This document shows positions 1,521 through 40,176 of a stretch of DNA of 60,290 bases, in pieces. Where the stretch lies: IMG/VR virus record IMGVR_UViG_3300049141_000058, positions 1 to 60,290 of that record. One strand, given 5' to 3'. The DNA is from a virus (lineage: Duplodnaviria; Caudoviricetes). The notes below the pieces were generated by a model, which did not search any database, was not told where the DNA came from, and saw only the letters and a program-made list of their open reading frames with translations. Made by a program: the position numbers and the translations under genes. Each line of letters starts with the position of its first letter. The stretch's first letter is position 1.

Positions 1521-2159
1521 GTGGAGATCGTAGAAACCTGGACCGGCCGCGCCGCCTGCTTACTGCAGCAGGCCATGCGACTGACGAACGAGGCGTTCGC
1601 GGAACACCTCGGCGTCAGCGAGCGGACGGTCAGCCGGTGGCACAGCGCTCCCGGCATGGTGCACCGAACCGAGGTGCAGCAGATCCTCGACACGGCATAC
1701 GAACAGGCGGGTGAGACGGTGCAGAGACGCTTCGCGCTCCTGCTGCGCCCGCCCGCGCCACGCGTGGAGGCCCAGGCCCTGCGGGTGGCAATAGCGGTCG
1801 TGCTGCGCGGGAACGACGTGCTGCTGGTGTGCCGGCGCGGCGACGGGGAGCTGCGCTGGCAGTTCCCCGCCGGCATGGTCAAGCCCGGCGCCGACCCGGC
1901 AACCGTCGCGGTGCAGGAGACGCACGGCGAGACGGGTGTGCACTGCACGGTCCGCGAGCAGCTGGGCGAGCGCGTCCACCCCGTGACGGGCGTGGTCGCC
2001 TCCTACTACCTGGCCGATCACCTGGCCGGGGATGCGACGAACCGTGACCCGCTCGAGAACGTCGACGTCACCTGGGTGCCGCGCACTGCCCTGACCCGGT
2101 TCATCCCCGCCGATCAGGTTTTCCCGCCGATTTTGTCCGCTTTGGAGGCGACTGTATGA
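1521..2159 (+). CDS. XRE-HTH / NUDIX hydrolase fusion
   Basis: N-terminal LTNEAFAEHLGVSERTVSRW HTH; C-terminal WQFPAGMVKPGADPATVAVQETHGETG degenerate Nudix box. Confidence 0.85.
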   Translation: MEIVETWTGRAACLLQQAMRLTNEAFAEHLGVSERTVSRWHSAPGMVHRTEVQQILDTAYEQAGETVQRRFALLLRPPAPRVEAQALRVAIAVVLRGNDVLLVCRRGDGELRWQFPAGMVKPGADPATVAVQETHGETGVHCTVREQLGERVHPVTGVVASYYLADHLAGDATNRDPLENVDVTWVPRTALTRFIPADQVFPPILSALEATV

Positions 2160-2569
2160 CGACCGAGACGACCACCGAGAAGCCCGGCATCTCCGCCGCC
2201 ATCATCGTGTCCGAGGGCAAGGTGCTCATGGTGCGGCGCCGGGTGTCGGAGGGTGAGCTGATGTGGCAGTTCCCGGCCGGGCAGATCGAGCCTGGGGAGG
2301 CCGCGGAGGATGCGGCGGTGCGGGAGACGGTCGAGGAGACCGGTCTGGTCGTCACCGCGACGAAGCTGCTCGGCGAGCGGGTGCACCCGAAGACGGGCCG
2401 GCTGATGTCGTACACGGCGTGCGAGCCGTTGCAGGGTGAAGCGCATGTCGCGGACGAGGACGAGCTGGACGCGGTCGCCTGGGTCGCCCACTCGGAGATC
2501 AAGGAGTACGTGCCCTACGGCTTGTACGAGCCGGTGCAAAAGTACCTCGACGACGTGCTGCCGCGCTGA
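2156..2569 (+). CDS. NUDIX hydrolase (MutT-like)
   Basis: Canonical Nudix box GQIEPGEAAEDAAVRETVEETGL. Confidence 0.9.
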   Translation: MTTETTTEKPGISAAIIVSEGKVLMVRRRVSEGELMWQFPAGQIEPGEAAEDAAVRETVEETGLVVTATKLLGERVHPKTGRLMSYTACEPLQGEAHVADEDELDAVAWVAHSEIKEYVPYGLYEPVQKYLDDVLPR

Positions 2570-3438
2570 GGAATGGTCTGGGCGGGCGCGGGTGCGGCGC
2601 ATGTCGGTCGTTCTGTCGTCCCGCCCCGCATCCGAGCGCTTTACTGCGAGGGGTAGCGCATCCTATCCCGGATTCCAAGTTGAGGTGTTGACGCAGCTCA
2701 GAGGCTTCGGGCGGGGAGTCTGATTTCGGTGCGCGGTGATTTGAGCTGATCACTGCGGCTGGCTACGGTCGCAGCACGTGGGGGCGGCGTGCGACTTGCA
2801 GCCCCCACCAACGAGGGTGGTTCAGTTTGGTCTACCGTCCACAGCATGGGCGAGTTCCGGCCGTCTCGTCAGACCATGCGCGGATCGGGACTATTGCGAC
2901 GGAAGGGATGTACGGGTGCCGTGCACAGTGATCGACCAGAGTGCACATCTTGCAAAATCGCAGGTCAGAGCCACCCTAACGCACCTCCAGATGCGTCCGG
3001 GATCCGCCCTACTACGCAAGCGGCTGCGGCAAGCTAGCACCGTCGGGGCAAGCTACCGACTGAGATCCTTTCGGCCAAAACATATGCCCCACTTGCCCGA
3101 CTCGGAAGGAGAGAGGCGTCGCCGAACAACACACCGCAGGCCAACGGGCACGCCGACACCCTCCCGTAATCACCCAGCTCAGGCATCCACGCAACCCCCA
3201 CTGCTCGACATTCATGCAGGTCAGGGGGCGTAGTAGACAACTATGTTGACAACTCGGAAGGAAACTCGCGGATGCTCCGAAACCGATCGCTAGCGTTGTG
3301 TCTCATTGCCGACCGCGGGCTACGGTCCGTGCAACGTCGAACGGCCGGGCGGTTCGCACCCGCCCGGCCGTAGCCCGACCAGCGAGTTCGCACCTCGCTG
3401 ATCAATCAACCATCACTCGCCAGAGAGAAGGTCTCGTC

Positions 3439-3747
3439 ATGAGCGTATCGCAGCGCTGTACTACACATCAGCGCAGCAATCTCACCGCCGACCGCTTGCT
3501 GGAAGATTCCCTCGCCGACTTGTTCACCCGGTTCGGGGTGGCCGTGTCCGTCATGGAGGCGGACGCCGGCTTCACCGGCGGCGCCTACGTCCACACTGAC
3601 GGCTCGCTGCTGTTCGTGCGGCCCGCGGGCAGGCCGGAGGCGGAGTGGGAGTTGACCGCGCGGGCGATGCTGGGCGCCGCGCTGCGGGTGCCGCTACCGC
3701 CGCTGCCGGAGCCGTACCGGCTGACGGAGATGGAGCCATCCGAGTGA
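3439..3747 (+). CDS. hypothetical protein immediately upstream of the CRISPR-like mini-array
   Basis: ATG 3439 after GAGAAGG; 102 aa with coding-like GC3 in the 3' two-thirds. Confidence 0.65.
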   Translation: MSVSQRCTTHQRSNLTADRLLEDSLADLFTRFGVAVSVMEADAGFTGGAYVHTDGSLLFVRPAGRPEAEWELTARAMLGAALRVPLPPLPEPYRLTEMEPSE

Positions 3748-3829
3748 CCGTCTAGGGCCGCGTTTCGCGTTCTCCCACGGACTGCCGACGGGTTGTGCCA
3801 TAGTGGTTGGGCCGCCGGGGAACCGACGG

Positions 3830-4059
3830 TTGCTCCCCGCCGATGCGGGGGTGTTCCGACTCTGAATCGCCCGGCTGTTGAGGGAGTTTCAGTTGTCCCC
3901 GCGGCAGCGGGGATGTGCCCGATGCGCATGACGACATCGCGGCTCCCCGCGCCAGCGGGGATGGCCCTGATTCCAGGGGCGTGCAGTACTGCTCCCCGCC
4001 GACGCGGGGGTAGACCGTGAACGCGGTCACTTGCTACCCGCGACAGCGGGAATGCGGAG
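3830..4059 (+). CRISPR. cas-less type I-E-like CRISPR mini-array (5 divergent 29-nt repeats; spacers 33/19/20/13 nt)
   Basis: R1 3830-3858 TTGCTCCCCGCCGATGCGGGGGTGTTCCG; R2 3892-3920 GTTGTCCCCGCGGCAGCGGGGATGTGCCC; R3 3940-3968 CGGCTCCCCGCGCCAGCGGGGATGGCCCT; R4 3989-4017 CTGCTCCCCGCCGACGCGGGGGTAGACCG; R5 4031-4059 TTGCTACCCGCGACAGCGGGAATGCGGAG. R1-R4 keep the CCCCGC-N4-GCGGGG stem of I-E repeats; R5 keeps CCCGC-N4-GCGGG. Confidence 0.85.
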
Positions 4060-4088
4060 CCCCACCCGATCACCGGGTGGGGCTCCGC
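4054..4088. terminator. bidirectional terminator hairpin
   Basis: Perfect 15-bp stem GCGGAGCCCCACCCG-ATCAC-CGGGTGGGGCTCCGC between the convergent array and 4112..5113. Confidence 0.8.
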
Positions 4089-4111
4089 CGTTTCATCCTG
4101 CAGCGCGGCGG

Positions 4112-5113
4112 TCAGCCGGCGGTCTCGTCGTCCTCGATGTCGGCGTAGTCGATGCGGGCACCGGTCGCCGCGGCGGCCCGGGCGGCCACCTGCCGGTGCC
4201 AGGACGCCGACCACCTCCCGCCCCGGTGCGCGGCGGCGTACTCCTCGTCACTGCGGTACGTGACGATCGTCGTGTCCTCGTCGTCCACGGACTCCACCAG
4301 CTTGGCGACTGCGGCGGCGGTCTCCTCCCGCAGTTCCGCGATCTCGGGCCGGATACGGCCGGGGATCGGGTCGCGGCCCTGCTCCCAGGAGCGCAGCGTG
4401 CGCGGGTTGACCCGCAGCAGCCTGGCCAGGTGGTCACCGGTCAGCCCCAGCTCCTCCCTGGCGATGCGCAGCTCGGCCGGCGTGATCGGGTCCTCGTCGG
4501 CGAGGCCGTCGCGCAGCTGCTTGAGGTAGCTGTCCAGGCCGTGGCAGACGACGACCGGGTGCTCACCGCACGCCTGCAGGTCGCCGAGGATCGCCTGCTC
4601 GATCTGTTCGAGGCGGGCGTCGGTGGTGTCGGCGGTGATGCCGTACTCGTCGGCCTCCTGGCCGTTGACGGCTGCGTCGATGTCCCACACGCCGACCAGG
4701 TCGCTGTCGGGGAACCCCTGCGTGTCCTCGTCGAAATGGCCTCCGTCGATCGTCGGCAAACCGAGGAACTTCTCGATCTCCTCCTCAGCGGCGATGGCGT
4801 CCTCGTTCATATCGGCGACGGTCGACTCTCCGTTCCAGACGGCTTCGGTACCGGCGATGATCCGGTCGGCGAGCGGGGCGATCTCTTCCATGACCCGGTT
4901 GGCGGCGTCCGCGGTCAGGACCGGGATCTCGTAGCGGCGGTCCAGGCCGTGGCGCACGGTCTCCGGGAGCGCGGTGCCGATCTCCGCGTTGTAACTGGCG
5001 TACAGGGTGCCGGCCTGGGTGTCGAGTTCGATGTAGGCGGGCTGCGGCTTGGTCTCGCCGTCGTAGTGACGGAACAGTTCGGTGGCGTTGGTGCACGGGA
5101 TGATGCGGACCAT
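4112..5113 (-). CDS. acidic N-terminal domain fused to a C-terminal Aca2/YdiL (DUF1870)-like HTH domain
   Basis: From residue ~210: ITPAELRIAREELGLTGDHLARLLRVNPRTLRSWEQGRDPIP...IVTYRSDEEY...SWHRQVAA follows the Aca2 pattern; the N-terminus is very Asp/Glu-rich. Confidence 0.75.
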   Translation of the reverse strand: MVRIIPCTNATELFRHYDGETKPQPAYIELDTQAGTLYASYNAEIGTALPETVRHGLDRRYEIPVLTADAANRVMEEIAPLADRIIAGTEAVWNGESTVADMNEDAIAAEEEIEKFLGLPTIDGGHFDEDTQGFPDSDLVGVWDIDAAVNGQEADEYGITADTTDARLEQIEQAILGDLQACGEHPVVVCHGLDSYLKQLRDGLADEDPITPAELRIAREELGLTGDHLARLLRVNPRTLRSWEQGRDPIPGRIRPEIAELREETAAAVAKLVESVDDEDTTIVTYRSDEEYAAAHRGGRWSASWHRQVAARAAAATGARIDYADIEDDETAG

Positions 5114-5159
5114 GGCGGGTCCCCTTTCCAGGGTAAGTCTCGGGTAGGTGGGTGCAGGC

Positions 5160-5666
5160 TCAGAGGGCGGCGACGGCGGCGCGGACGGCGGCGAAGATGC
5201 GGGCGGCGATCTCTTCGCGGTCGAGGCTGCGCGGGTTGCCCCAGCCCCACTTGATGTAGACCTTGCCGTCGGCGACGTTGAAGTAGACCTTGTCGACGGC
5301 GGTGGCGAGCCGGCCGCCTTCGGCGTTGGAGACCTTTTCGCCGTCGAGGGTGGCGTAGCTGATGCTGCCGGACTTGTAGTGGTCCAGCTCCAGGCCGGGG
5401 ACGGTCTCGAAGTCGTTGAGGTAGATGCGGTCGTGGCCGTTCTTCTGCCAGCGGCGTCCGCCGATCGCGGTCATCGTCTCGACGGAGTAGACGACCTTTC
5501 GGGCGGGGCGCTTCATCTGGCCGATGGCGATGCGGGCGGCGAGGGAGGCGGTGTCGATGACCCAGCGGCCGGCGGTCTTGGTGGCGGCGACGGCGCCGCG
5601 GCGGCACCAGGTGCGGACGGTGGCGACGGTGACGTTGGCCTGAGCTGCGGCGAGAGCGGTGTTCAT
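5160..5666 (-). CDS. HTH_17/MerR-like N-terminus fused to an uncharacterised phage domain; candidate anti-defence protein
   Basis: AAAQANVTVATVRTWCRRGAVAATKTAGRWVID HTH; C-terminal GGRRWQKNGHDRIYLN motif; GGAG RBS. Confidence 0.75.
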   Translation of the reverse strand: MNTALAAAQANVTVATVRTWCRRGAVAATKTAGRWVIDTASLAARIAIGQMKRPARKVVYSVETMTAIGGRRWQKNGHDRIYLNDFETVPGLELDHYKSGSISYATLDGEKVSNAEGGRLATAVDKVYFNVADGKVYIKWGWGNPRSLDREEIAARIFAAVRAAVAAL

Positions 5667-5724
5667 GATGATCTCCGAGTGACTTACGGAGTGGGCTGGG
5701 GCTGATCCCCTGCCTCACGCGAAC

Positions 5725-5754
5725 AACGTACACCCTAAATTAGGGTGCGAGCAA
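5725..5754 (-). promoter_or_regulatory. sigma70/HrdB-type promoter with an inverted-repeat operator in the spacer
   Basis: TTGCTC(5754-5749)-N18-TACGTT(5730-5725); spacer contains CACCCTAA-A-TTAGGGTG (5731-5747). Confidence 0.7.
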
Positions 5755-5919
5755 GCCCGTTGCTGAAAGTCGCCGCCTGAACACTCAACAGGTGCTGCCG
5801 GGGGGCCTGTTGCATCGACCTCGTGACCCCGGCCACACCCCGCCCAACTCGCTTGCCGTACTCGTCAGTACACCCCGACGCTGCTGCCTCAGCCCGGTTT
5901 GAACCTCTGGGGGCCATTG

Positions 5920-6243
5920 ATGATCGTCTGCCCGTCATCGAAGTGCGGTTCGCCGAATGTTGCGGATCTGCCGCACTACTGGGCGAGTCTCCCGTCGGAG
6001 TCGCCGTTGAAGGCGCAGTACGCGCCGCCGGAAGCCGCCCAGGCCTCGTACTGGGCCGCGCTGGCCGCGGTCGTCGTCGGGGTACTGGTGGCCGTCGGGG
6101 GCGGGGTGCTGGTCGGCCTGCTGATTGCGGCCGGCGGCCTGCTGTGGGGCGTCGTCGTCTACAAGGTGGTCGAGGCGTCGCTCGCGGAGCGGGCGGCCTG
6201 GGAGTCGTCCCGGGTGTGCCTCGCCTGCACGGGCCGGTTCTGA
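5920..6243 (+). CDS. membrane protein with terminal Cys pairs (possible Zn ribbon)
   Basis: CPSSKC ... two hydrophobic helices ... CLAC. Confidence 0.75.
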   Translation: MIVCPSSKCGSPNVADLPHYWASLPSESPLKAQYAPPEAAQASYWAALAAVVVGVLVAVGGGVLVGLLIAAGGLLWGVVVYKVVEASLAERAAWESSRVCLACTGRF

Positions 6244-6250
6244 CACACGG

Positions 6251-6284
6251 AACGCCCCCGCAGCCTGCTGGCTGCGGGGGCGTT
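6251..6284. terminator. bidirectional terminator
   Basis: AACGCCCCCGCAGCC-TGCT-GGCTGCGGGGGCGTT between convergent genes. Confidence 0.75.
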
Positions 6285-6287
6285 GCG

Positions 6288-6530
6288 CTATCCGAGGTAG
6301 TTGATCTGCAGGACGGTGACTGTCTTCAGCGTTTCCCCGACCAGCAGGACTGCGAGGGCCTGGTCGGTGACGATCATCCGGACGATTCCGTCGTCTTCGC
6401 CGTAGGGCTGGCTGGCGGCGATTGGGTCGTGGCAGGCCTCGGCTAACGCGAGGGTGAGGGATTCGCTGGCTGCGGCTGGCATCGCTTCGTGCACGGCTTC
6501 GGCAGCGGGGTCGTACTTGAGGCGATACAT
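6288..6530 (-). CDS. putative RelE/ParE-fold toxin
   Basis: MYRLKYDPAAEA...DP...VTVLQINYLG has the RelE-like N- and C-terminal strand pattern; GAGGAGAGG RBS. Confidence 0.55.
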   Translation of the reverse strand: MYRLKYDPAAEAVHEAMPAAASESLTLALAEACHDPIAASQPYGEDDGIVRMIVTDQALAVLLVGETLKTVTVLQINYLG

Positions 6531-6635
6531 ACCTCTCCTCGTCATCCAAACGGTCACGGCACCGGCGGTAGCCGGGAGAGGTCGGCCGTGTCGTTAGAGT
6601 AGCAGCGCGGCAACCGTGTGTGTCCGCTGTTCGGG

Positions 6636-6920
6636 TCAGGCGGCGCCGCGGGTGCGGATGCGGTCGGCATCAGCCTGAACGCGCTCTGTGGCGTCGTTCC
6701 AGTCGGCGGTGGGGTCGTCTCCGCGGGCTTGAGCGGCGGCGATCTCGCGGCCCCGTTCGACCGCAGTCTGCGTGTCCTTGGCGATGCGTTCCCAGCGGGC
6801 GAAGACCTGCAGCAGTTGGTGGGCCGGCGCGCGGTTGATCTCGCCGAGGAAGCGCTGGGCGAGTGCGGGGTTGCCGAGGGCGTCACGGATCCGTTCGATG
6901 GTCCATGGCTGATCGCTCAT
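6636..6920 (-). CDS. putative antitoxin (DUF6247-like helical protein)
   Basis: WTIERIRDALG..RFLGEINRA..VFARWERIA; lies directly upstream of the RelE-like gene. Confidence 0.5.
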   Translation of the reverse strand: MSDQPWTIERIRDALGNPALAQRFLGEINRAPAHQLLQVFARWERIAKDTQTAVERGREIAAAQARGDDPTADWNDATERVQADADRIRTRGAA

Positions 6921-7069
6921 CCCGGCCTCCCAAGCTTTAGCCCGCTTAAGTTCAGGCTAGCGTTTATTCGAGACCTCAATCCACGAATCGCTGTCCGCGA
7001 GCCTCGCCCGGGAGTTTCGGGCGAGGGCTTCGCGTCAGAGGGTCCGCGTCGAGTCGTACCGCTCGGAGC

Positions 7070-7642
7070 TCACGTCGCCTGGTGTTGGCTGACGTCGAGT
7101 GCTTCCTCGATGAGTGCGGTGTCGATGGAGACGCTGTGTTCGTCGGCGAGCCGGCGGACGCGTTCGACGGTGGCGCGGGCTTGGTCGCGTTCGCGGCCTG
7201 CTTCGTTCATGAGCTGGATGGCGCGGACGGCGGTCCAGGTGGTGGTGTCGGTGCCGACGGGTATCGGGCCGAGGATTTCGGTGAGGACGGCTCGGGCGAC
7301 GGCGCGACGGACGGACATCGGCAGCCACTCCCCCGCGGCGCGGAGTGCGGGTTGGACGGCGTTGAAGGCGCGCGCTTCGAGCTGCGTCCAGACGGCGGGG
7401 GTGCTGGCGGGTTCGGTCGCTTGGGTCGCTACCTGGTCGGCGGCGAGCTGCCGCCCGCAGCGCGCACCCTTCAGCCACTCCCGCACGTCCGCGGTGGTGA
7501 CCGGGCGCTGTTCCCGCTCGGCGATGGCGCAGCACTCGGCGACGAACGCGAGGGCGTCCTGCGCCTGGTAGAGCTGGAAGTCGAGGTCGTCGGCCAGATC
7601 GCGGGCTTCCTCGGCAGTCAGTTCGGTGGTGTCGTCGGTCAT
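7070..7642 (-). CDS. hypothetical phage protein
   Basis: MTDDTTELTAEEARD start coupled to the LuxR gene stop. Confidence 0.7.
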   Translation of the reverse strand: MTDDTTELTAEEARDLADDLDFQLYQAQDALAFVAECCAIAEREQRPVTTADVREWLKGARCGRQLAADQVATQATEPASTPAVWTQLEARAFNAVQPALRAAGEWLPMSVRRAVARAVLTEILGPIPVGTDTTTWTAVRAIQLMNEAGRERDQARATVERVRRLADEHSVSIDTALIEEALDVSQHQAT

Positions 7643-7899
7643 GCGGCTCTCCGGGTGGGTTCGTTGAGGTCGAGTTCGTCGAAGCGGATGATGTGGCGGT
7701 GGAGGGCGATGACGGCGGCGTGGGTGCGGGAACGGGCGCCGAGCCGGACGCATGCTTCCTTCAACCGCAGGTGGACGGCTCGCTCGGTGGTGCCGAGGCG
7801 GGTGGCTATCTGCCGGCTGGTGTAGCCGGACGCGGCCAAGCGGAGCGCGGCGAGCTGACCGGGGCTGAGGGGTTGGCCTTCGACGCCGGGGTTCCTCAC
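7639..7899 (-). CDS. LuxR-type HTH regulator
   Basis: LSPGQLAALRLAASGYTSRQIATRLGTTERAVHLRLKEACVRLGARSRTHAA. Confidence 0.9.
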   Translation of the reverse strand: MRNPGVEGQPLSPGQLAALRLAASGYTSRQIATRLGTTERAVHLRLKEACVRLGARSRTHAAVIALHRHIIRFDELDLNEPTRRAA

Positions 7900-8096
7900 G
7901 ACGTGCTCCTCTGCCGGTTGGGTGCCTGGAGTCGGCCTTCGCGCACGGCTTTCTGCCGGAGGGCTTCTTCGATGACGCGGGCGGGGATCATGCCGGGGAA
8001 GCAGTCACGGAGGAGTTCCTCGGCGCGGGCGCTGATGTATTTGCGGCTGGTCGACGGCCTCCGCGGGATACTCGCGCCGGGATTCGCTTGGGTCAC
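7896..8096 (-). CDS. small hypothetical (possible RHH) protein
   Basis: 66 aa ORF coupled to the LuxR gene. Confidence 0.55.
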   Translation of the reverse strand: MTQANPGASIPRRPSTSRKYISARAEELLRDCFPGMIPARVIEEALRQKAVREGRLQAPNRQRSTS

Positions 8097-12458: not shown

Positions 12459-12652
12459 CAGAGGGACTCCAAAGTGGGCTGGAAGGGCTTGAGCGGGATC
12501 TCGGTCTGTCCGGGGATGGGTTGGGCTGGCGGGTCGGTGGCGCGGATGCTGGTCGGCCGGCGGCTGGGGGCGAGGCGGCGGGCGCAGACGGGGCCCAGGC
12601 CCGTGGGAGACGGGCGGACCAGACGCCGGCCACACGCCGCACAGCGGGCCAT
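12458..12652 (-). CDS. DUF6011-like Zn-finger protein
   Basis: RCAACGRRL...GLGPVCA motif. Confidence 0.7.
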   Translation of the reverse strand: MARCAACGRRLVRPSPTGLGPVCARRLAPSRRPTSIRATDPPAQPIPGQTEIPLKPFQPTLESL

Positions 12653-13827
12653 CACGCAGCCTCCGCGGCCGGCTGCGCGGCGGGCATCGGGATGCCGGTC
12701 GCCACGGACACGACGTGCGCGGCCAGCAGCGGCGGCACAGCGTTCCCCACCTGCTCGAACTGCTTCGTCTTGGTGCCCTGGAACGGGTAGTCGGGGTGGA
12801 ACGACTGGAGAACGGCGGCCTCCGCGACGGTGATGCGGACGGTGTCGGGGCTGGCGAACTGGGACTCGCCGCCTGCGTCTCGGTTGCGGTGTCCGGGCGG
12901 GGCGATCCGGTTGGTGGCGCACACCGTGGTGGCTGGCCTGTCGAGGGCCCAGCTCCAGCGGTGGGCCTCGCCGGTGAAGGTGGGGGCGGGCTGGTCGATG
13001 CTGCGGTTCTCGCGGGGGCCCTCCTTCGCGATCCAGGTGTCGGAGTCGCGGCGGGATCGCAGCATCCACGAACGGGTTTTCTCGGTAAGCGCCCAAGACG
13101 GCCCGTCGGCGGGGAACTCGTTGCCGCCCGGCGTCTTCCGCTCGCCGCGGGTGTTCACTGTGAGCCCCGACGTCCAGCCGAGCGCCTCCGCCATGGACAC
13201 CCACGACTCCAGGCGCGTCCCGAACAGGTCGTCCGCAGGGTCCTTGGCGTGTGTCGGATCCGGGGCGGTCACGCGGCGGACGCGGGAAGCGATCAGGATC
13301 GCCCGCTTCCGGGTCTGCGGGACCCCGTAGTCCGCGGCGTTGAGGATCCCCACCCAGGTGCTGTAGCCCCACTGCTGCAGGTACAGGGCGTACTGGCGCC
13401 ACAGCGGCAGGACGTCGGGGACTTCCTCCATGCACACCCACTCCGGGCGCAGGTCGTACAGCCACCGCATCGGCTCCGCAGCGAGCAGGCTGCGCTCGTC
13501 CTTGCACGCGGCCCGCACCGTGGCGCGGCTGTCCCGGCCGTGGGCGAGGTCGTGCACGGTCTGAGTGACCAGCGGCTGGTCCTCCAGGCCGCCGCGCTTC
13601 CCGGCCCGCGACCAGGCCTGGCACGGCGGGGACGCGATCAGCCCGGCGATCCGGCCGGCGAACGGCGCCGTCGGGTACTGGGCGACGTCGCACTGGATGA
13701 CCGGGTGCCCGGCGGCGTGCGCCGTTCTGCAGGCTGCGGTGTCCCACTCCAGGCCGACGTCGGTGAGGCCGAGGAGGCGCAGTCCCTCGGACCAGCCCCG
13801 CGGGCCGGCGAACAGGTCCACGATCAT
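12652..13827 (-). CDS. DNA (cytosine-5) methyltransferase
   Basis: VDLFAG (I), SPPCQ (IV), EEV (VI), QTRKR (VIII), VGNAVP (X). Confidence 0.92.
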   Translation of the reverse strand: MIVDLFAGPRGWSEGLRLLGLTDVGLEWDTAACRTAHAAGHPVIQCDVAQYPTAPFAGRIAGLIASPPCQAWSRAGKRGGLEDQPLVTQTVHDLAHGRDSRATVRAACKDERSLLAAEPMRWLYDLRPEWVCMEEVPDVLPLWRQYALYLQQWGYSTWVGILNAADYGVPQTRKRAILIASRVRRVTAPDPTHAKDPADDLFGTRLESWVSMAEALGWTSGLTVNTRGERKTPGGNEFPADGPSWALTEKTRSWMLRSRRDSDTWIAKEGPRENRSIDQPAPTFTGEAHRWSWALDRPATTVCATNRIAPPGHRNRDAGGESQFASPDTVRITVAEAAVLQSFHPDYPFQGTKTKQFEQVGNAVPPLLAAHVVSVATGIPMPAAQPAAEAA

Positions 13828-36704: not shown

Positions 36705-37040
36705 GTGACCGACCTGCCGCCTGACCTGCCGCGTCTCCGCACCCTGGAGCGGTGGCTCGCCCTCGCCCTGGCCGAGGTGCGGCAGGCCATCGCCGTCGCC
36801 GAGCAGCGGGAAGCCGAGCGCCAGCGCGGTATCGCCGCCCGTCCGCCGGCTCCGGACTGGCTCCTGGAGCAGGGCCTCACCGGACGGGTGCCGGTGTACG
36901 TCCATGCAGGCGGCTGCCACATGGCTGGCAAGCGGTCCCGGTCCGCCACCGCCGGCCAGGCGCGGCAGGCCCTCGCCGAAGGGGTGGACGCCTGCCCGCA
37001 CTGCCGGCCCGACACCGGCCTCGGCTATCTCGACGGCTAG
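36705..37040 (+). CDS. DUF6233-like protein
   Basis: DLPPDLPRLRTLE..VHAGGC..ACPHCRPDTGLG. Confidence 0.75.
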   Translation: MTDLPPDLPRLRTLERWLALALAEVRQAIAVAEQREAERQRGIAARPPAPDWLLEQGLTGRVPVYVHAGGCHMAGKRSRSATAGQARQALAEGVDACPHCRPDTGLGYLDG

Positions 37041-37942
37041 GCCGACCGGCGCGGCTTGCGCGGAGCCGCCTTCTTGGCCGCGGTCTTCTTGGCGGGCTGC
37101 TTCTTCGCGGTCTTCTTCGGCGGCGGCATCTCGTGGACGTCGGCGTCTCCGCCCTCGCCCCGTGACGCCTTCGCCTTGGCCACGGACGCGTTCAGTGCGG
37201 CCATGAGGTCGACGAGCTGCCCCGGCTCCTCCGCCGGCTCCGGCATTGGCGGTGGTGCGATGTGCTGCCGCTTGGCTTCGATGATCTGGGCGACGGCTTC
37301 CGTGTACCGGTCCTGGAACTCTTCGCCGACCAGTTCGTCGACGGTCATGGTGTCCATCAGGGCGAGCGCGCCCGCGATCTCCTCGTTGGTCACGTCGACG
37401 GGAGGGGGCAGCAGTTCGGTGGGGTCGCGGATTTCATCCGGCCAGCGCATGGCGTGGAGGACGATGACGTCGCCGCGGACGCGGAGCAGGCCGAGACGCT
37501 CGCGTCCTGACCAGGCGTACTTCGCCACCGCCACCTTCGAGGAGCGGCCGAGAGCCTGGACGAGCAGCTTGTACGGCTTCGCGGCGACCTGCCCGTCGGG
37601 CTGGAGGTAGTAGCCCTCACCGATACGGATCGGGTCGACGGAGTCGAGGGGCACGAAGGCTTCGATCTCGATCGCCTTCGCGGTCGGCAGGGGTAGGTTC
37701 CGCAGGTCGTCGTCGCTGATGGGGATGACCTGCGTTTTGCTCAGCTCATACCCTTTGCCGATCTCCGACTGGGCGACCTCGCGGTCCTCGAGTTCGCACA
37801 CCTTGCGGTAGCGGACCCGGCCCATGTCCTCCAGGTGGTACTGGTGGAACTGGATGCTGTGGTTCTCGGTGGCCGACTGCACGTTGATCGGCACGGTGAC
37901 CAGGCCAAACGAGATGGCGCCGGACCAGATGGTTCGGGGCAT
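37037..37942 (-). CDS. ku: NHEJ DNA end-binding protein Ku
   Basis: RTIWSGAISFGLVTVPI, IGKGYE, YYLQP, VDLMAALNASV, Lys-rich tail. Confidence 0.96.
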   Translation of the reverse strand: MPRTIWSGAISFGLVTVPINVQSATENHSIQFHQYHLEDMGRVRYRKVCELEDREVAQSEIGKGYELSKTQVIPISDDDLRNLPLPTAKAIEIEAFVPLDSVDPIRIGEGYYLQPDGQVAAKPYKLLVQALGRSSKVAVAKYAWSGRERLGLLRVRGDVIVLHAMRWPDEIRDPTELLPPPVDVTNEEIAGALALMDTMTVDELVGEEFQDRYTEAVAQIIEAKRQHIAPPPMPEPAEEPGQLVDLMAALNASVAKAKASRGEGGDADVHEMPPPKKTAKKQPAKKTAAKKAAPRKPRRSA

Positions 37943-38745: not shown

Positions 38746-38837
38746 CGCACGCGAGCGCCCGACCTTCTGGCCGGGCGCTCGGGGTTCGGCGATCGCGTCC
38801 GCAGACCATCGCCACTGGGCACCCAGAAGGCGCGTCA

Positions 38838-38914
38838 GGTGCGGGGCCGGAGTCGAACCGACGTCCATGCCGGGCATGACCCCGGCCGCTCTATACCCAG
38901 TGAGCTACCCGCAC
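38838..38914 (-). tRNA. tRNA-like element with an aberrant 8-nt anticodon loop (GGUCAUGC), no encoded CCA
   Basis: Acceptor GTGCGGG/CCCGCAC; D arm GCTC-ACTGGGTATA-GAGC; anticodon stem GCCGG/CCGGC; T arm GTCGG-TTCGACT-CCGGC. Confidence 0.75.
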
Positions 38915-38986
38915 CCCCAGGATGCCAGAAGCCCCGCCGAGACGGGGGAGCCCGGCAGGGCCTGACAGCAGTGTGGCACGGGGCGG

Positions 38987-39160
38987 TCAGTCTTCGCGGT
39001 GAAGCGGGGACTCTCGGCAGCGCGGATTCGTGCAGATGACCTTCTCTTCCTCGCTGGCCGGCTCCATGTAGGTGCGAAGGCTGAAGGTGTTACAGCCGGT
39101 GCACCGGCGTTGGGGGCCGGGCTTGGTGCTGTTGAGGAACTCACTGAACGGCGTCGTCAT
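38987..39160 (-). CDS. small Zn-ribbon protein
   Basis: CTGC...CTNPRC, ATGA-coupled to the recombinase gene. Confidence 0.55.
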   Translation of the reverse strand: MTTPFSEFLNSTKPGPQRRCTGCNTFSLRTYMEPASEEEKVICTNPRCRESPLHRED

Positions 39161-40176
39161 AGTCCGATGTCCTCCGATGCGGCGTCGGTCCACTTGTCGG
39201 CTTCGCGGATGTAGCCCCAGAAGGCGGGGCTGTTCTCGGCGTGGCCGGACTGTTCGCGGATCTTCTCCTCTCGCTTGCCTGCGCGTCGAGAGGTGGTGAT
39301 GAATCCGGCCCGCATGCTGTGTCCGGTCAGCCGCACCGACAGGCCGGCGCGTTCGGCGTTGCGAGCGATGATCTCGCGGACGGCTTCCGGGGAGAGGGCG
39401 CGGTTGCCGAGGCGGCCGTGGACGGTGATGGGCAGGAAGGAGGGGCCCGAGGTGATGCCTGCGGCGGCGCGCCAGGTGAGCCATGCGCGGACGGGGCAGG
39501 TGTCGGGGTTCTTGCCGTAGTGGACGACGACGTCGCGGGGTGGGCGGCCTTTGACCGCGGGGACGTGGACTTCGAGTCCTTGGCTGACGTGGACGATCGA
39601 CTCGGCGCGGAGGGCGGCGACTTCGGCGGAGCGTCCGGCGATGGCGAAGGCAAGGAGCCAGAGGGCGCGGTCGCGGAGTCCGGTGAGTCCGTCGGCGACG
39701 GCGGCGTTCATCTGCCGGAGCTGTTCGGGTGTGGCTGCGGCGGCCTTCCCTCGGCCGCGCGCCATGCGTTCGGGGTCGTGCTTGAGCGGCTTGAGGGCTT
39801 GCCGGGCGGCGACGGTGGCGGCCTTGGGTACCTCGACGCCGTGTTCGTTCCGGGCGGTGACGGTGACGCCGGTGATCCTGCGGTCGATGCTGTTGGGTGC
39901 GGCGAGTTTGATGGTGTCGAGCCAGACGACGAATCCGACGAGCGTGCCCTTGGTGACGTTGGTGGAGGCGATCCGGTGCCCGGTGCGCTCCCCCAGCCAG
40001 TCGTGGAACTCCTCCCACAGCGCCCAGTCGTTGGCGTAGCCGCGCTTCGTGTTGTGGGGGCGGATGGCGTCGAGGTGCTTCTCGGCTGCCTTTTCCATGG
40101 CGTGCAGGACGGCGAGCGTCGCAGCGTCGTAGATGGCGGGGGCGGTGTCGGACTGGTGGGGGACGACCGCGGTCAC
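39157..40176 (-). CDS. Cre-like tyrosine recombinase/resolvase
   Basis: NTKRGYANDW SAM-like N-terminus; LRDRAL, GRSAEV, GHSMRAG, SGH, GYIR. Confidence 0.92.
   Translation of the reverse strand: MTAVVPHQSDTAPAIYDAATLAVLHAMEKAAEKHLDAIRPHNTKRGYANDWALWEEFHDWLGERTGHRIASTNVTKGTLVGFVVWLDTIKLAAPNSIDRRITGVTVTARNEHGVEVPKAATVAARQALKPLKHDPERMARGRGKAAAATPEQLRQMNAAVADGLTGLRDRALWLLAFAIAGRSAEVAALRAESIVHVSQGLEVHVPAVKGRPPRDVVVHYGKNPDTCPVRAWLTWRAAAGITSGPSFLPITVHGRLGNRALSPEAVREIIARNAERAGLSVRLTGHSMRAGFITTSRRAGKREEKIREQSGHAENSPAFWGYIREADKWTDAASEDIGL

What the first reader, a model, noticed from the sequence alone, without database searches (positions are those of the whole stretch)
4112..5113. Aca2/YdiL-like domain fused to a ~209-aa highly acidic domain (possible Acr-Aca fusion or DNA mimic)
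Seen: residues from ~210 (codon at 4486) give the pattern ELxxxRxxLxL..A.....VxxRxxxxWExGRxxxP...long helix...xxY...EY...W...VAA. The N-terminal part is conspicuously D/E-rich. Established: this pattern is how I recall Aca2/DUF1870 proteins, which are usually stand-alone ~120-aa proteins downstream of acr genes; many Acr and anti-restriction proteins are acidic DNA mimics. Inference: the inhibitor and its autorepressor are fused in one polypeptide.
Basis: partly seen in the sequence, partly recalled or inferred. Interest (0 to 1): 0.82.

Follow-up and report, generated by a model that had tools for sequence, protein, structure and literature searches.

The report
Acidic domain fused to Aca2 repressor
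A Streptomyces phage gene joins a self-regulating Aca2-type repressor to a very acidic domain of unknown fold, and it sits beside a small array of CRISPR-repeat look-alikes, which makes it a good but untested candidate for a CRISPR-blocking locus.

Summary
ORF 4112-5113 (-) encodes 333 aa. Residues 206-333 have the complete Aca2/YdiL fold, including its dimerisation part (VIA Z 14.6 to 7vjo_B, 115 of 118 residues; generic HTHs Z 7.5 or less). Residues 1-205 form a confidently modelled domain (pLDDT 90.8) with no PDB match, net charge -29; the protein is the most acidic of 58 predicted in the window.

The window is an incomplete Streptomyces siphophage record. The gene ends a two-gene operon with a palindromic operator between -35 and -10 and a two-hairpin 5' UTR covering the ribosome site. 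This layout recurs in 13 of 14 fused loci and matches the published Aca2 architecture.

The N-domain (precomputed PF26929) also occurs alone; in 12 of 17 such loci a different HTH gene follows.

Unexpectedly, five type I-E CRISPR-repeat-like units with mostly short spacers (3830-4059, +) lie just downstream. Similar arrays flank the gene in 6 of 35 loci and nowhere else in the sampled DNA.

Best reading (about 0.45): an autoregulated anti-defence fusion, probably anti-type I-E, resembling AcrIF24 with its Cracr arrays. No inhibition has been shown, no spacer target was found, and hosts show no I-E enrichment.

The parts
4112..5113 (-). Fusion gene (P0001, 333 aa): acidic N-domain plus Aca2/YdiL-like C-domain
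   Evidence: ORF and translation. 136 homologues at E <= 1e-3, nearly all Streptomyces. AF2 model pLDDT 94.6, pTM 0.86.
4499..5113 (-). N-domain, residues 1-205: acidic, precomputed PF26929, no known fold
   Evidence: Net charge -29, pI 4.1. Model of the domain alone: pLDDT 90.8. No PDB match: best VIA Z 4.5, 0 of 48161 chains at Z >= 5; best Foldseek E 0.45. BFVD gave one uncharacterised phage protein. No local Pfam or PHROG family.
4112..4498 (-). C-domain, residues 206-333: Aca2/YdiL-type HTH with dimerisation region
   Evidence: Family profile against PDB: the four best hits are Aca2 chains, E 4.8e-8 to 1.2e-6. VIA 7vjo_B Z 14.6, rmsd 2.5, 115 of 118 residues; YdiL 1s4k Z 13.4. Foldseek 7b5j TM 0.80. 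Predicted homodimer uses only residues 211-323.
5160..5666 (-). orf168, first gene of the operon (weak N-terminal MerR/excisionase-type HTH)
   Evidence: HTH_17 E 1.3e-4, below cut-off. phrog_2474 E 0.005. Lies directly upstream of the N-domain gene in 9 of 34 related loci.
5725..5754 (-). Predicted promoter with operator: -35 TTGCTC (5749-5754), palindrome CACCCTAAtTTAGGGTG (5731-5747), -10 TACGTT (5725-5730)
   Evidence: Perfect 8+8 palindrome. It is the only match in the window at up to 3 mismatches. A palindrome sits at the same position in 11 other fused loci, and its arms change in the three loci with the most divergent C-domain. Promoter hexamers were read by eye; the consensus scan found none.
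5673..5714 (-). 5' UTR with two conserved hairpins; the second (CUCCG-9 nt-CGGAG) covers the GGAG ribosome site
   Evidence: RNAfold gives the same two-hairpin shape in 12 of 12 aligned loci, with compensatory changes.
4054..4088 (.). Perfect 15-bp hairpin between the convergent gene and repeat array (likely two-way terminator)
   Evidence: Inverted repeat I5, 100% complementary, 5-nt loop. Equivalent hairpins follow the arrays in L012 and L032.
3830..4059 (+). Array of five type I-E CRISPR-repeat-like 29-nt units (3830, 3892, 3940, 3989; degenerate one at 4031) with spacers of 33, 19, 20 and 13 nt
   Evidence: All four exact CCCCGC-N4-GCGGGG hits in the window lie here; 0 of 100 shuffles reach the 9 matches seen at up to 1 mismatch. 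The first four units match 20-21 of 25 fixed positions of the repeat taken from real 61-nt-period Streptomyces arrays, better on + than on -. Layout.
3795..3806 (+). Conserved GTGCCATAGTGG motif about 25 nt upstream of the array (possible -10 region)
   Evidence: Near-identical motif upstream of the arrays in L032 and L036; looser versions in L012, L023 and L034. Promoter function is inferred.

Best explanation
P0001 is the last gene of a small autoregulated operon near one end of a temperate Streptomyces siphophage. Its C-terminal domain is an Aca2-type dimeric repressor. It is predicted to bind the palindrome between -35 and -10 of its own promoter. By analogy with Aca2 it may also bind the two hairpins of the 5' UTR that cover the ribosome site, which would cap expression after an early burst. 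The fused N-terminal domain is the cargo. It is a conserved, strongly acidic, stand-alone-capable domain, most likely an anti-defence effector. My best guess is an inhibitor of the host type I-E CRISPR-Cas system. It would act alongside the neighbouring array of I-E repeat look-alikes, whose RNAs would sequester or reprogram Cas proteins. Shown here: the gene, the folds, the family, the operator and UTR conservation, and the link to the arrays. Inferred: DNA and RNA binding, every inhibitory activity, and the target.
For: (1) Complete Aca2 fold: family profile against PDB gives Aca2 chains as the top four hits (E 4.8e-8 to 1.2e-6); VIA Z 14.6 over 115 of 118 residues, against 7.5 or less for generic HTHs.
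(2) Predicted homodimer score 0.63 against a best control of 0.00. That mark was reached by 20 of 30 proteins solved as pairs of one chain and 1 of 23 solved as single chains. Runs agree in at least 89% of contacts, partner pLDDT at least 88, and the interface lies only in residues 211-323. Aca2 dimers are solved, so this pass may reflect likeness.
(3) The promoter palindrome plus two-hairpin UTR recurs in 13 of 14 fused loci (L010 UTR only) and upstream of the gene in 0 of 21 stand-alone or partial loci. It is kept where orf168 is absent (L011, L012, L015, L034). Operator arms and hairpin stems change together with C-domain divergence in L017, L026 and L034. This is the layout reported for Aca2 operons (PMC13551039, passages read).
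(4) The N-domain is the constant cargo. Alone, it is followed by a conserved 172-198-aa HTH gene in 12 of 17 loci and by a small HTH-like gene in 2. Other family members are fused to HTH_31, Phd/YefM or MarR domains.
(5) Clusters of I-E repeat look-alikes lie within 60-400 nt of the gene in the window, L012, L032, L034 and L036, and 2 kb away in L023. That is 6 of 35 loci, with no other cluster in 389 kb of loci plus the window. In whole records the exact motif occurs only there: G000 4 of 4, G003 2 of 2, G004 2 of 2, G005 4 of 4, and 2 of 3 on the plasmid contig of G001.
(6) Repeat-mimic RNAs are reported to co-locate with acr genes, and I-E arrays with 21-24-nt spacers silence cas genes. [quoted passage not shown]
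(7) Acidity is conserved across the family, the fold is unmatched, and the gene lies 1.7-4.2 kb from contig or genome ends in four viral records, one of them complete with terminal repeats.
Against: Nothing here shows inhibition. Only 6 of 35 loci carry an array. Nine isolated threshold-level repeat-like hits lie elsewhere in the loci. No target was found for any spacer: three Streptomyces I-E cas loci gave noise-level matches; 401 Streptomyces genomes gave 9 hits at 2 mismatches against 2 for the reversed control, none flanked by repeats; phage and plasmid collections gave only self or repeat matches. Cse1 is no commoner in genomes carrying the N-domain (8 of 19) than in sampled Streptomyces (48 of 121). 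The N-domain family is very large (2031 representatives at E <= 1e-3) and reaches beyond Streptomyces, which is broader than most Acr families. Only 35 of 1223 Aca2-like proteins were reported to have an upstream acr gene (PMC9410906). The window's own sequence is below Pfam's Aca2_YdiL cut-off. Rfam gave no CRISPR-DR hit in 3000-6500. I could not compare my UTR with the published 'actino-motif' because that paper is not held.
Confidence: 0.45

Rival explanations
1. The N-domain is an anti-defence effector but not CRISPR-specific, for example an acidic nucleic-acid mimic that blocks restriction or another DNA-binding defence as Ocr and ArdA do. The neighbouring repeat array would then be a separate tenant of the same anti-defence island.
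For: Strong, conserved acidity. A very wide family on plasmids and phages. Position near genome ends. Array present in only 6 of 35 loci. No I-E enrichment in hosts. A C5 methylase and two NUDIX genes in the same arm of the phage suggest several counter-defence genes.
Against: No structural match to any solved protein appeared in the PDB searches. A missing match does not exclude mimicry. The tight, repeated adjacency to I-E repeat arrays in varied orientations is not explained.
Confidence: 0.25
2. The protein is simply a two-domain phage or plasmid transcription factor. The N-domain would be a sensor or partner-binding module that tunes the Aca2-type DNA-binding domain, with no role in counter-defence. 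Stand-alone N-domain plus the separate HTH gene would be the split form.
For: The N-domain is always paired with a DNA-binding module, fused or adjacent. High pTM (0.86) of the full model suggests the two domains pack in a fixed way. Most Aca2-like proteins lack an acr partner (PMC9410906). On plasmids the gene sits in the replication region, downstream of dnaB.
Against: The paired DNA-binding modules are unrelated families (Aca2, a 175-aa HTH, Phd/YefM, MarR). That pattern is typical of a cargo gene with interchangeable regulators rather than a dedicated sensor. This reading also leaves the repeat arrays unexplained.
Confidence: 0.2
3. A toxin-antitoxin-like addiction module, with the HTH domain (Aca2, structurally MqsA-like) as antitoxin and autorepressor and the N-domain or orf168 as toxin.
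For: Weak matches to the MqsA family, HigA2 and Xre antitoxins. Three family members carry a Phd/YefM domain. Acr-aca and TA operons share their layout (PMC9410906 discussion).
Against: A covalent toxin-antitoxin fusion is unusual. The N-domain shows no match to a toxin family. It is large, very acidic, and lacks an obvious catalytic motif.
Confidence: 0.05

Closest known systems
Aca2 (anti-CRISPR-associated protein 2; PF08965 / DUF1870; e.g. Pectobacterium phage ZF40, PDB 7vjo, 7b5j, 7ezy)
   Same: Whole fold including the dimerisation region. Predicted dimer through that region. Palindrome within its own promoter and two hairpins in the 5' UTR, as described for Aca2 (PMC13551039 passages). 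Last position in the operon.
   Different: Aca2 is a stand-alone protein of about 120 aa. Here it is the C-terminal third of a 333-aa protein. The operator sequence is different and GC-flanked. DNA and RNA binding are untested. The host is an actinomycete phage.
AcrIF24 with its co-encoded Cracr arrays
   Same: [quoted passage not shown]
   Different: Type I-F in Proteobacteria against type I-E repeats in Streptomyces. No sequence or fold relation was found or tested. 21 of 58 I-F cracr genes are reported linked to acrIF24 and most acrIF24 genes carry one; here 6 of 35 loci carry an array. No promoter target was found for the spacers here.
Racr / Cracr RNA anti-CRISPRs (repeat mimics)
   Same: CRISPR-repeat look-alikes on a mobile element, outside any cas locus, with their own promoter-like motif and terminator. 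Spacers of 19-20 nt resemble the reported 21-24-nt I-E Cracr spacers (preprint section 8).
   Different: Loops and flanks differ between units. Some spacers are full length (33 nt). No Cas-dependent processing, target or activity is shown.
Other Acr-regulator fusions (AcrIIA1, described as an Acr-Aca fusion in PMC9410906)
   Same: An inhibitor and its autorepressor in one polypeptide.
   Different: Different HTH family, different domains, and a type II target. I saw only the cited statement, not the primary papers.
Acidic DNA mimics Ocr and ArdA (recalled, not tested by any search)
   Same: Strong net negative charge; carried by phages and plasmids.
   Different: Neither appeared in the fold searches. 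Mimicry cannot be judged without surface analysis or experiment.

Membership tests
Aca2/YdiL (PF08965, DUF1870) | Sequence match to the family model | tested here: inconclusive
   The window protein scores 20.3 bits against a cut-off of 23.8 (E 6.6e-4). Many close homologues carry a precomputed PF08965 hit and some NCBI names read 'DUF1870 family protein'. A 69-sequence family profile hits four Aca2 chains at E 4.8e-8 to 1.2e-6.
Aca2/YdiL (PF08965, DUF1870) | HTH plus C-terminal extension forming the Aca2 fold | tested here: met
   VIA 7vjo_B Z 14.6, rmsd 2.5, 115 of 118 residues, model residues 208-322. YdiL 1s4k_B Z 13.4. The next unrelated HTH scores Z 7.5. Foldseek TM 0.65-0.80 normalised to the Aca2 chains.
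Aca2/YdiL (PF08965, DUF1870) | Homodimer through the C-terminal region | tested here: met
   Prediction only: score 0.63 against a best control of 0.00. The mark was reached by 20 of 30 proteins solved as pairs and 1 of 23 solved as single chains. Contacts agree in at least 89%, partner pLDDT at least 88, interface residues 211-223, 245-246, 285-287 and 304-323. The pass may reflect likeness to solved Aca2 dimers.
Aca2/YdiL (PF08965, DUF1870) | Inverted repeat overlapping its own promoter (autorepression) | tested here: met
   In silico only. Palindrome 5731-5747 lies between the -35 and -10 candidates and is unique in the window. It is conserved or co-varying in 12 of 14 fused loci; L010 is cut before it and L032 lacks it. 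Binding is not testable here.
Aca2/YdiL (PF08965, DUF1870) | [quoted passage not shown] | tested here: inconclusive
   Two hairpins are predicted in 12 of 12 loci, with compensatory changes. Single-sequence z-scores are weak (-3.5 to +0.06). The published 'actino-motif' could not be seen, so identity with it is unverified.
Anti-CRISPR protein (N-domain) | Inhibits a CRISPR-Cas system | not testable with these tools
   Needs interference assays.
Anti-CRISPR protein (N-domain) | Genetic linkage to an aca gene or other anti-CRISPR elements on a mobile element | tested here: met
   Fused to an Aca2 domain. I-E repeat-mimic arrays adjacent in 6 of 35 loci and nowhere else in the sampled DNA. Located on phage and plasmid records.
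Anti-CRISPR protein (N-domain) | Similarity to a known Acr family | tested here: inconclusive
   No PDB sequence or fold match. No dedicated Acr or anti-defence HMM library was available.
Racr / Cracr repeat-mimic RNA (neighbouring array) | Mimics the host CRISPR repeat, on a mobile element, away from cas genes | tested here: met
   The stem is identical to that of real 61-nt-period Streptomyces arrays. Four of the five units match 20-21 of 25 fixed positions; the fifth is degenerate. The record is viral and none of the 20 larger predicted proteins scanned against Pfam matched a Cas family.
Racr / Cracr repeat-mimic RNA (neighbouring array) | Spacer partly complementary to a cas or creT promoter (Cracr) | tested here: inconclusive
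   No convincing match in 3 cas loci or 401 genomes. The true host is unknown.
Acidic DNA mimic (Ocr/ArdA-like) | Surface charge pattern imitating DNA; binding to a DNA-binding enzyme | not testable with these tools
   Only net charge was measured. Model coordinates were not open to analysis.

The most novel reading that the evidence does not exclude
The PF26929 N-domain is a new and very widespread family of type I-E anti-CRISPR proteins in actinomycete phages and plasmids. In this phage it is welded to an Aca2 regulator that controls it at both DNA and RNA level. It works together with a co-encoded array of repeat-mimic RNAs, making this a type I-E, Gram-positive counterpart of the AcrIF24-Cracr partnership.
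Probability: 0.3. Interest if true: 0.8.

Novelty: new variant of a known kind. Interest (0 to 1): 0.62.

Why it matters
About 40% of the sampled Streptomyces genomes carry a type I-E Cascade gene (48 of 121). My searches listed no paper on a Streptomyces anti-CRISPR.

If the N-domain is an inhibitor, it would give a first handle on how Streptomyces phages and plasmids evade I-E immunity. It would also assign a function to a family of more than a thousand sequence clusters. Practically, it would offer a tool for taming endogenous CRISPR-Cas during genetic work in these antibiotic producers.

The locus is also a compact test case with three layers: a protein effector, a DNA- and RNA-binding autoregulator, and repeat-mimic RNAs. 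Even without the inhibitor claim, the conserved operator and UTR extend the Aca2 regulatory scheme to fused proteins in actinomycete phages.

Tried and rejected
- **N-domain identity.** Local Pfam, PHROGs, NCBIfam and PADLOC gave nothing for residues 1-205. The ESM Atlas gave no usable hit. PDB fold searches gave nothing. BFVD returned one uncharacterised phage protein. The name of PF26929 could not be found: it is absent from the local Pfam, and 0 papers hold the accession.
- **RNA families.** An Rfam scan of 3000-6500 at E <= 10 gave no CRISPR-DR family, only weak chance-level rows, including an HDV-ribozyme-like 29 bits at 3328-3405.
- **Promoters.** The sigma-70 consensus scan found no promoter in 2500-8000, so my promoter calls rest on conservation and reading by eye.
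- **Spacer targets.** None found in three I-E cas loci, in 401 Streptomyces genomes for the 20-nt spacer, or in phage and plasmid collections for the 33-nt spacer, the L034 inter-repeat stretch and the L012 spacer. Those returned only self or repeat-to-repeat matches.
- **Host link.** Cse1 was found in 8 of 19 carrier genomes against 48 of 121 sampled Streptomyces, so there is no enrichment.
- **Unavailable sources.** The Nature 2024 Aca2 RNA-binding paper is not held. Supplementary tables of the Cracr and Aca papers, which might already list this array or family, were not opened.
- **Rejected ideas.** The repeats are not the decayed edge of a host CRISPR array: the record is viral, homologous arrays lie in other phage and plasmid records beside the same gene, and each has its own promoter-like motif and terminator. 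The protein is unlikely to be the phage's main immunity repressor, given its position at the end of the early arm, far from the integrase at 39157-40176.
Full report
**The gene and the observation.**
ORF 4112-5113 on the minus strand is open for 333 codons. It starts at an ATG behind a good ribosome site and has the codon-position GC pattern of a real high-GC gene.

Residues 1-205 carry 41 acidic against 12 basic residues (net -29, pI 4.1). The protein is the most acidic of 58 predicted proteins in the window. Acidity is conserved in the family: median net -31 in 33 close stand-alone homologues and -25 in 73 distant ones. The C-terminal part is also acidic (pI 4.7).

**What the window is.**
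The window is a whole IMG/VR virus record, linear, estimated 76% complete, with about 69% GC.
- Tail and lysis genes on the minus strand: a 1943-aa tape-measure protein with M23 and SLT domains, Dit, a Gp37-like tail protein and a CHAP lysin. An integrase and a Ku homologue lie mid-record.
- A long minus-strand early arm: sliding clamp, exonuclease, YqaJ/RecT, DnaB and a C5 methylase.
- P0001 is the last gene of that arm, 4 kb from the record's left end.
- Relatives sit 1.7-4.2 kb from contig ends in three other viral records, one of them complete with terminal repeats.

**The C-terminal domain is Aca2, not a generic HTH.**
- Alone, the sequence falls just short of Pfam's Aca2_YdiL cut-off (20.3 against 23.8 bits).
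- A profile of 69 family members finds four Aca2 chains as its best PDB hits (E 4.8e-8 to 1.2e-6, residues 209-308).
- The AF2 model is very confident (pLDDT 94.6, pTM 0.86).
- Residues 208-322 superpose on ZF40 Aca2 at Z 14.6 (rmsd 2.5, 115 of 118 residues) and on YdiL at Z 13.4. The best generic HTH reaches 7.5. Foldseek agrees.
- A two-copy prediction scores 0.63 against 0.00 for the best control. That mark was reached by 20 of 30 proteins solved as pairs and 1 of 23 solved as single chains. Contacts agree in at least 89% and partner pLDDT is at least 88. All confident contacts lie in residues 211-323. Aca2 dimers are solved, so this shows likeness rather than independent proof.

**A conserved regulatory region of the Aca2 kind.**
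P0001 follows orf168 (5160-5666) after a 46-nt gap with no room for a promoter. Upstream of orf168, reading the minus strand, lie:
- a TTGCTC -35 candidate;
- the perfect palindrome CACCCTAAtTTAGGGTG (5731-5747), the only such site in the window;
- a TACGTT -10 candidate;
- a UTR that folds into two hairpins, the second covering the GGAG ribosome site.

The same block lies upstream of 13 of 14 fused loci. L010 is cut by its contig end, and L032 has a 5'-truncated gene and lacks the block. It is found upstream of the gene in none of 21 stand-alone or partial loci. It is retained where orf168 is missing or reduced to a remnant (L011, L012, L015, L034), so the fusion gene is the constant cargo.

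In the three loci whose C-domain is only about 41% identical (L017, L026, L034), the palindrome arms differ (GCTTCCA..TGGAAGC, GCGGTCCTAA..TTAGGACCGC, TTCCTA..TAGGAA) and the second hairpin changes from CUCCG/CGGAG to GCCGG/CCGGC. All 12 UTRs still fold to the same shape.

Published work describes exactly this layout for Aca2: an inverted repeat in the promoter plus two 5' UTR hairpins that block the ribosome site, including an 'actino-motif' (PMC13551039, passages read). I could not see that motif itself because the primary paper is not held. Binding is inferred.

**The N-terminal domain.**
- Homologues are almost all from Streptomyces. Of the 120 listed, about 85 are full-length fusions and about 33 are stand-alone proteins of 196-219 aa. 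Nearly all carry a precomputed PF26929 hit, a family absent from the local Pfam.
- Stand-alone forms lie on Streptomyces plasmids, often just downstream of dnaB.
- A profile search of 1.84 billion representatives finds 2031 clusters at E <= 1e-3 and 1413 at 1e-10.
- Of 65 longer members, 4 carry HTH_31, 3 Phd/YefM, 2 Aca2_YdiL, 2 DUF6003 and 1 MarR.
- In 12 of 17 stand-alone loci the next gene is a conserved 172-198-aa protein with a clear HTH-like stretch. Pfam matches for it are weak (HTH_28, HTH_11, Sigma70_r4_2). In 2 more loci the next gene is a small excisionase-like HTH.
- The domain folds confidently alone (pLDDT 90.8) but matches nothing solved. The best VIA Z is 4.5 with no chain at Z >= 5, and the best Foldseek E is 0.45. 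BFVD gives one uncharacterised phage protein.

A conserved cargo with interchangeable DNA-binding partners is the layout of acr-aca operons, but it also fits a split transcription factor.

**The unexpected neighbour.**
Right after the perfect 15-bp hairpin that ends P0001 (4054-4088), the plus strand carries five units of the form TGCT-CCCCGC-N4-GCGGGG-ATGnnCCn at 3830, 3892, 3940, 3989 and, degenerate, 4031. Spacers are 33, 19, 20 and 13 nt.
- All four exact motif hits in the 60-kb window are here.
- Real Streptomyces CRISPR arrays with 61-nt period use this very stem. Of 81 sampled genomes, 17 hold ten or more copies. The repeat from three such arrays is [G/C]TGCTCCCCGC-N4-GCGGGGATGGTCCC.
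- The first four window units match 20-21 of its 25 fixed positions on the plus strand, and fewer on the minus strand. The array would therefore be transcribed towards P0001, sharing its terminator.

A scan of 34 related loci (389 kb) plus the window found clusters of two or more such units in six places only, all next to the N-domain gene:
- the window;
- L012 (136-197 nt after the stop);
- L032 (59-159 nt after);
- L034 (231-403 nt before the start);
- L036 (126-366 nt before, stand-alone gene, provirus);
- L023 (2 kb after, stand-alone gene).

Nine isolated hits at the threshold lie elsewhere. In the whole viral records the exact motif occurs nowhere else, and on the 84-kb plasmid 2 of its 3 copies are these.

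The arrays share a GTGCC..TAGTGG-like motif upstream and a hairpin downstream. The window and L032 arrays are homologous. They differ by one 62-nt repeat-spacer unit at the promoter end and one 42-nt unit at the terminator end, and the two short spacers are kept (16 of 19 and 19 of 20 identical). Flanks are about equally conserved, so I claim no special selection on the spacers.

**How this bears on function.**
Three reports are relevant:
- Phage-borne repeat mimics (Racrs) inhibit CRISPR-Cas and co-locate with acr genes (PMC10651486, passages).
- Arrays of CRISPR-like RNAs with 21-24-nt spacers (Cracrs) silence type I-E cas genes (10.1101/2024.10.29.618823, sections 7-8).
- I-F Cracrs are tightly linked to acrIF24 (section 9). 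[quoted passage not shown]

The present locus has the same three ingredients for type I-E in Streptomyces. That is why I rank an anti-I-E role first.

**The case is incomplete.**
- No spacer target was found.
- Genomes carrying the N-domain have Cse1 no more often than others (8 of 19 against 48 of 121).
- Most loci have no array.
- The family is unusually broad for an Acr.
- Only 3% of Aca2-like proteins were reported next to an acr gene (PMC9410906).
- No RNA data set was listed for this stretch.

**Novelty.**
The domain pairing is already visible in databases: precomputed PF26929 plus PF08965, and NCBI names such as 'DUF1870 family protein'. Aca2 relatives in actinomycetes and Acr-Aca fusions are also known.

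Three things appear new, as far as my searches reach. Those searches were 'Aca2' with 'Streptomyces' (15 papers, 10 listed), 'PF26929' (0 papers), and 'anti-CRISPR' with 'Streptomyces', 'type I-E' and 'phage' (23 papers, 12 listed); none describes a Streptomyces Acr. Supplementary tables were not seen.
- The conserved operator and UTR of this fused form.
- The acr-aca-like behaviour of the PF26929 domain.
- Its repeated adjacency to I-E repeat-mimic arrays.

I rate it a new variant of a known kind, of moderate to high interest, resting on a testable but untested inhibitor claim.

Noticed in passing
window 3830-4059 (+), promoter-like motif 3795-3806, hairpin 4054-4088: Array of five type I-E CRISPR-repeat look-alikes with spacers of 33, 19, 20 and 13 nt, convergent with the fusion gene. 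Homologous or similar arrays lie beside the N-domain gene in L012, L023, L032, L034 and L036. It is a candidate RNA anti-CRISPR (Racr/Cracr-like) or mini-array. No target was found.
   Followed up: yes
window 1521-2159 (+) and 2156-2569 (+): Two adjacent NUDIX hydrolase genes, the first with an N-terminal HTH, at the same end of the phage record. The second has a 74%-identical relative near the fusion gene in L017. They may be further counter-defence or nucleotide-housekeeping genes.
   Followed up: partly
window 3298-3747 (+): Small acidic ORF (83-149 aa depending on start) with no family match, ending 83 nt before the repeat array on the same strand. Relatives exist in L014 and L033. It might be co-transcribed with the array.
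   Followed up: partly
window 3328-3405 (-): Weak HDV-ribozyme-like Rfam match (29.3 bits against a gathering score of 50, E 0.17). Probably chance.
   Followed up: no
window 12652-13827 (-): C-5 cytosine DNA methylase in the early arm (E 1.7e-34). It is a likely anti-restriction self-methylase.
   Followed up: no
window 37037-37942 (-), 38837-38915 (-), 39157-40176 (-): A Ku homologue sits next to the integrase. Between them is a tRNA-like element that ARAGORN calls with an odd two-base anticodon; it may be an attP-associated tRNA fragment.
   Followed up: no
L065 (Streptomyces phage Piccadilly OL455886.1) 2801-2831; 11 further records of related Streptomyces sanglieri phages: A single I-E repeat-like unit lies in an unannotated 365-nt gap near the right genome end of these cultured phages. 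They may carry solitary repeat units and would be convenient for experiments.
   Followed up: partly
L002 8627-12348 (Streptomyces sp. NBC_00513 linear plasmid): A stand-alone N-domain gene is followed by the 198-aa HTH gene and then a 1042-aa DEAD/DEAH helicase. A recent paper notes DEAD/DEAH helicases downstream of aca2 in three acr-aca2 operons (PMC13551039 passage).
   Followed up: no
Cse1 matches in G401, G408, G007, G074, G108 and others: Many Streptomyces Cse1 matches lie in open frames of 1450-1680 aa, far longer than the 450-position Cse1 model. This suggests fusion of Cse1 with another protein in these I-E loci. I did not check which.
   Followed up: no
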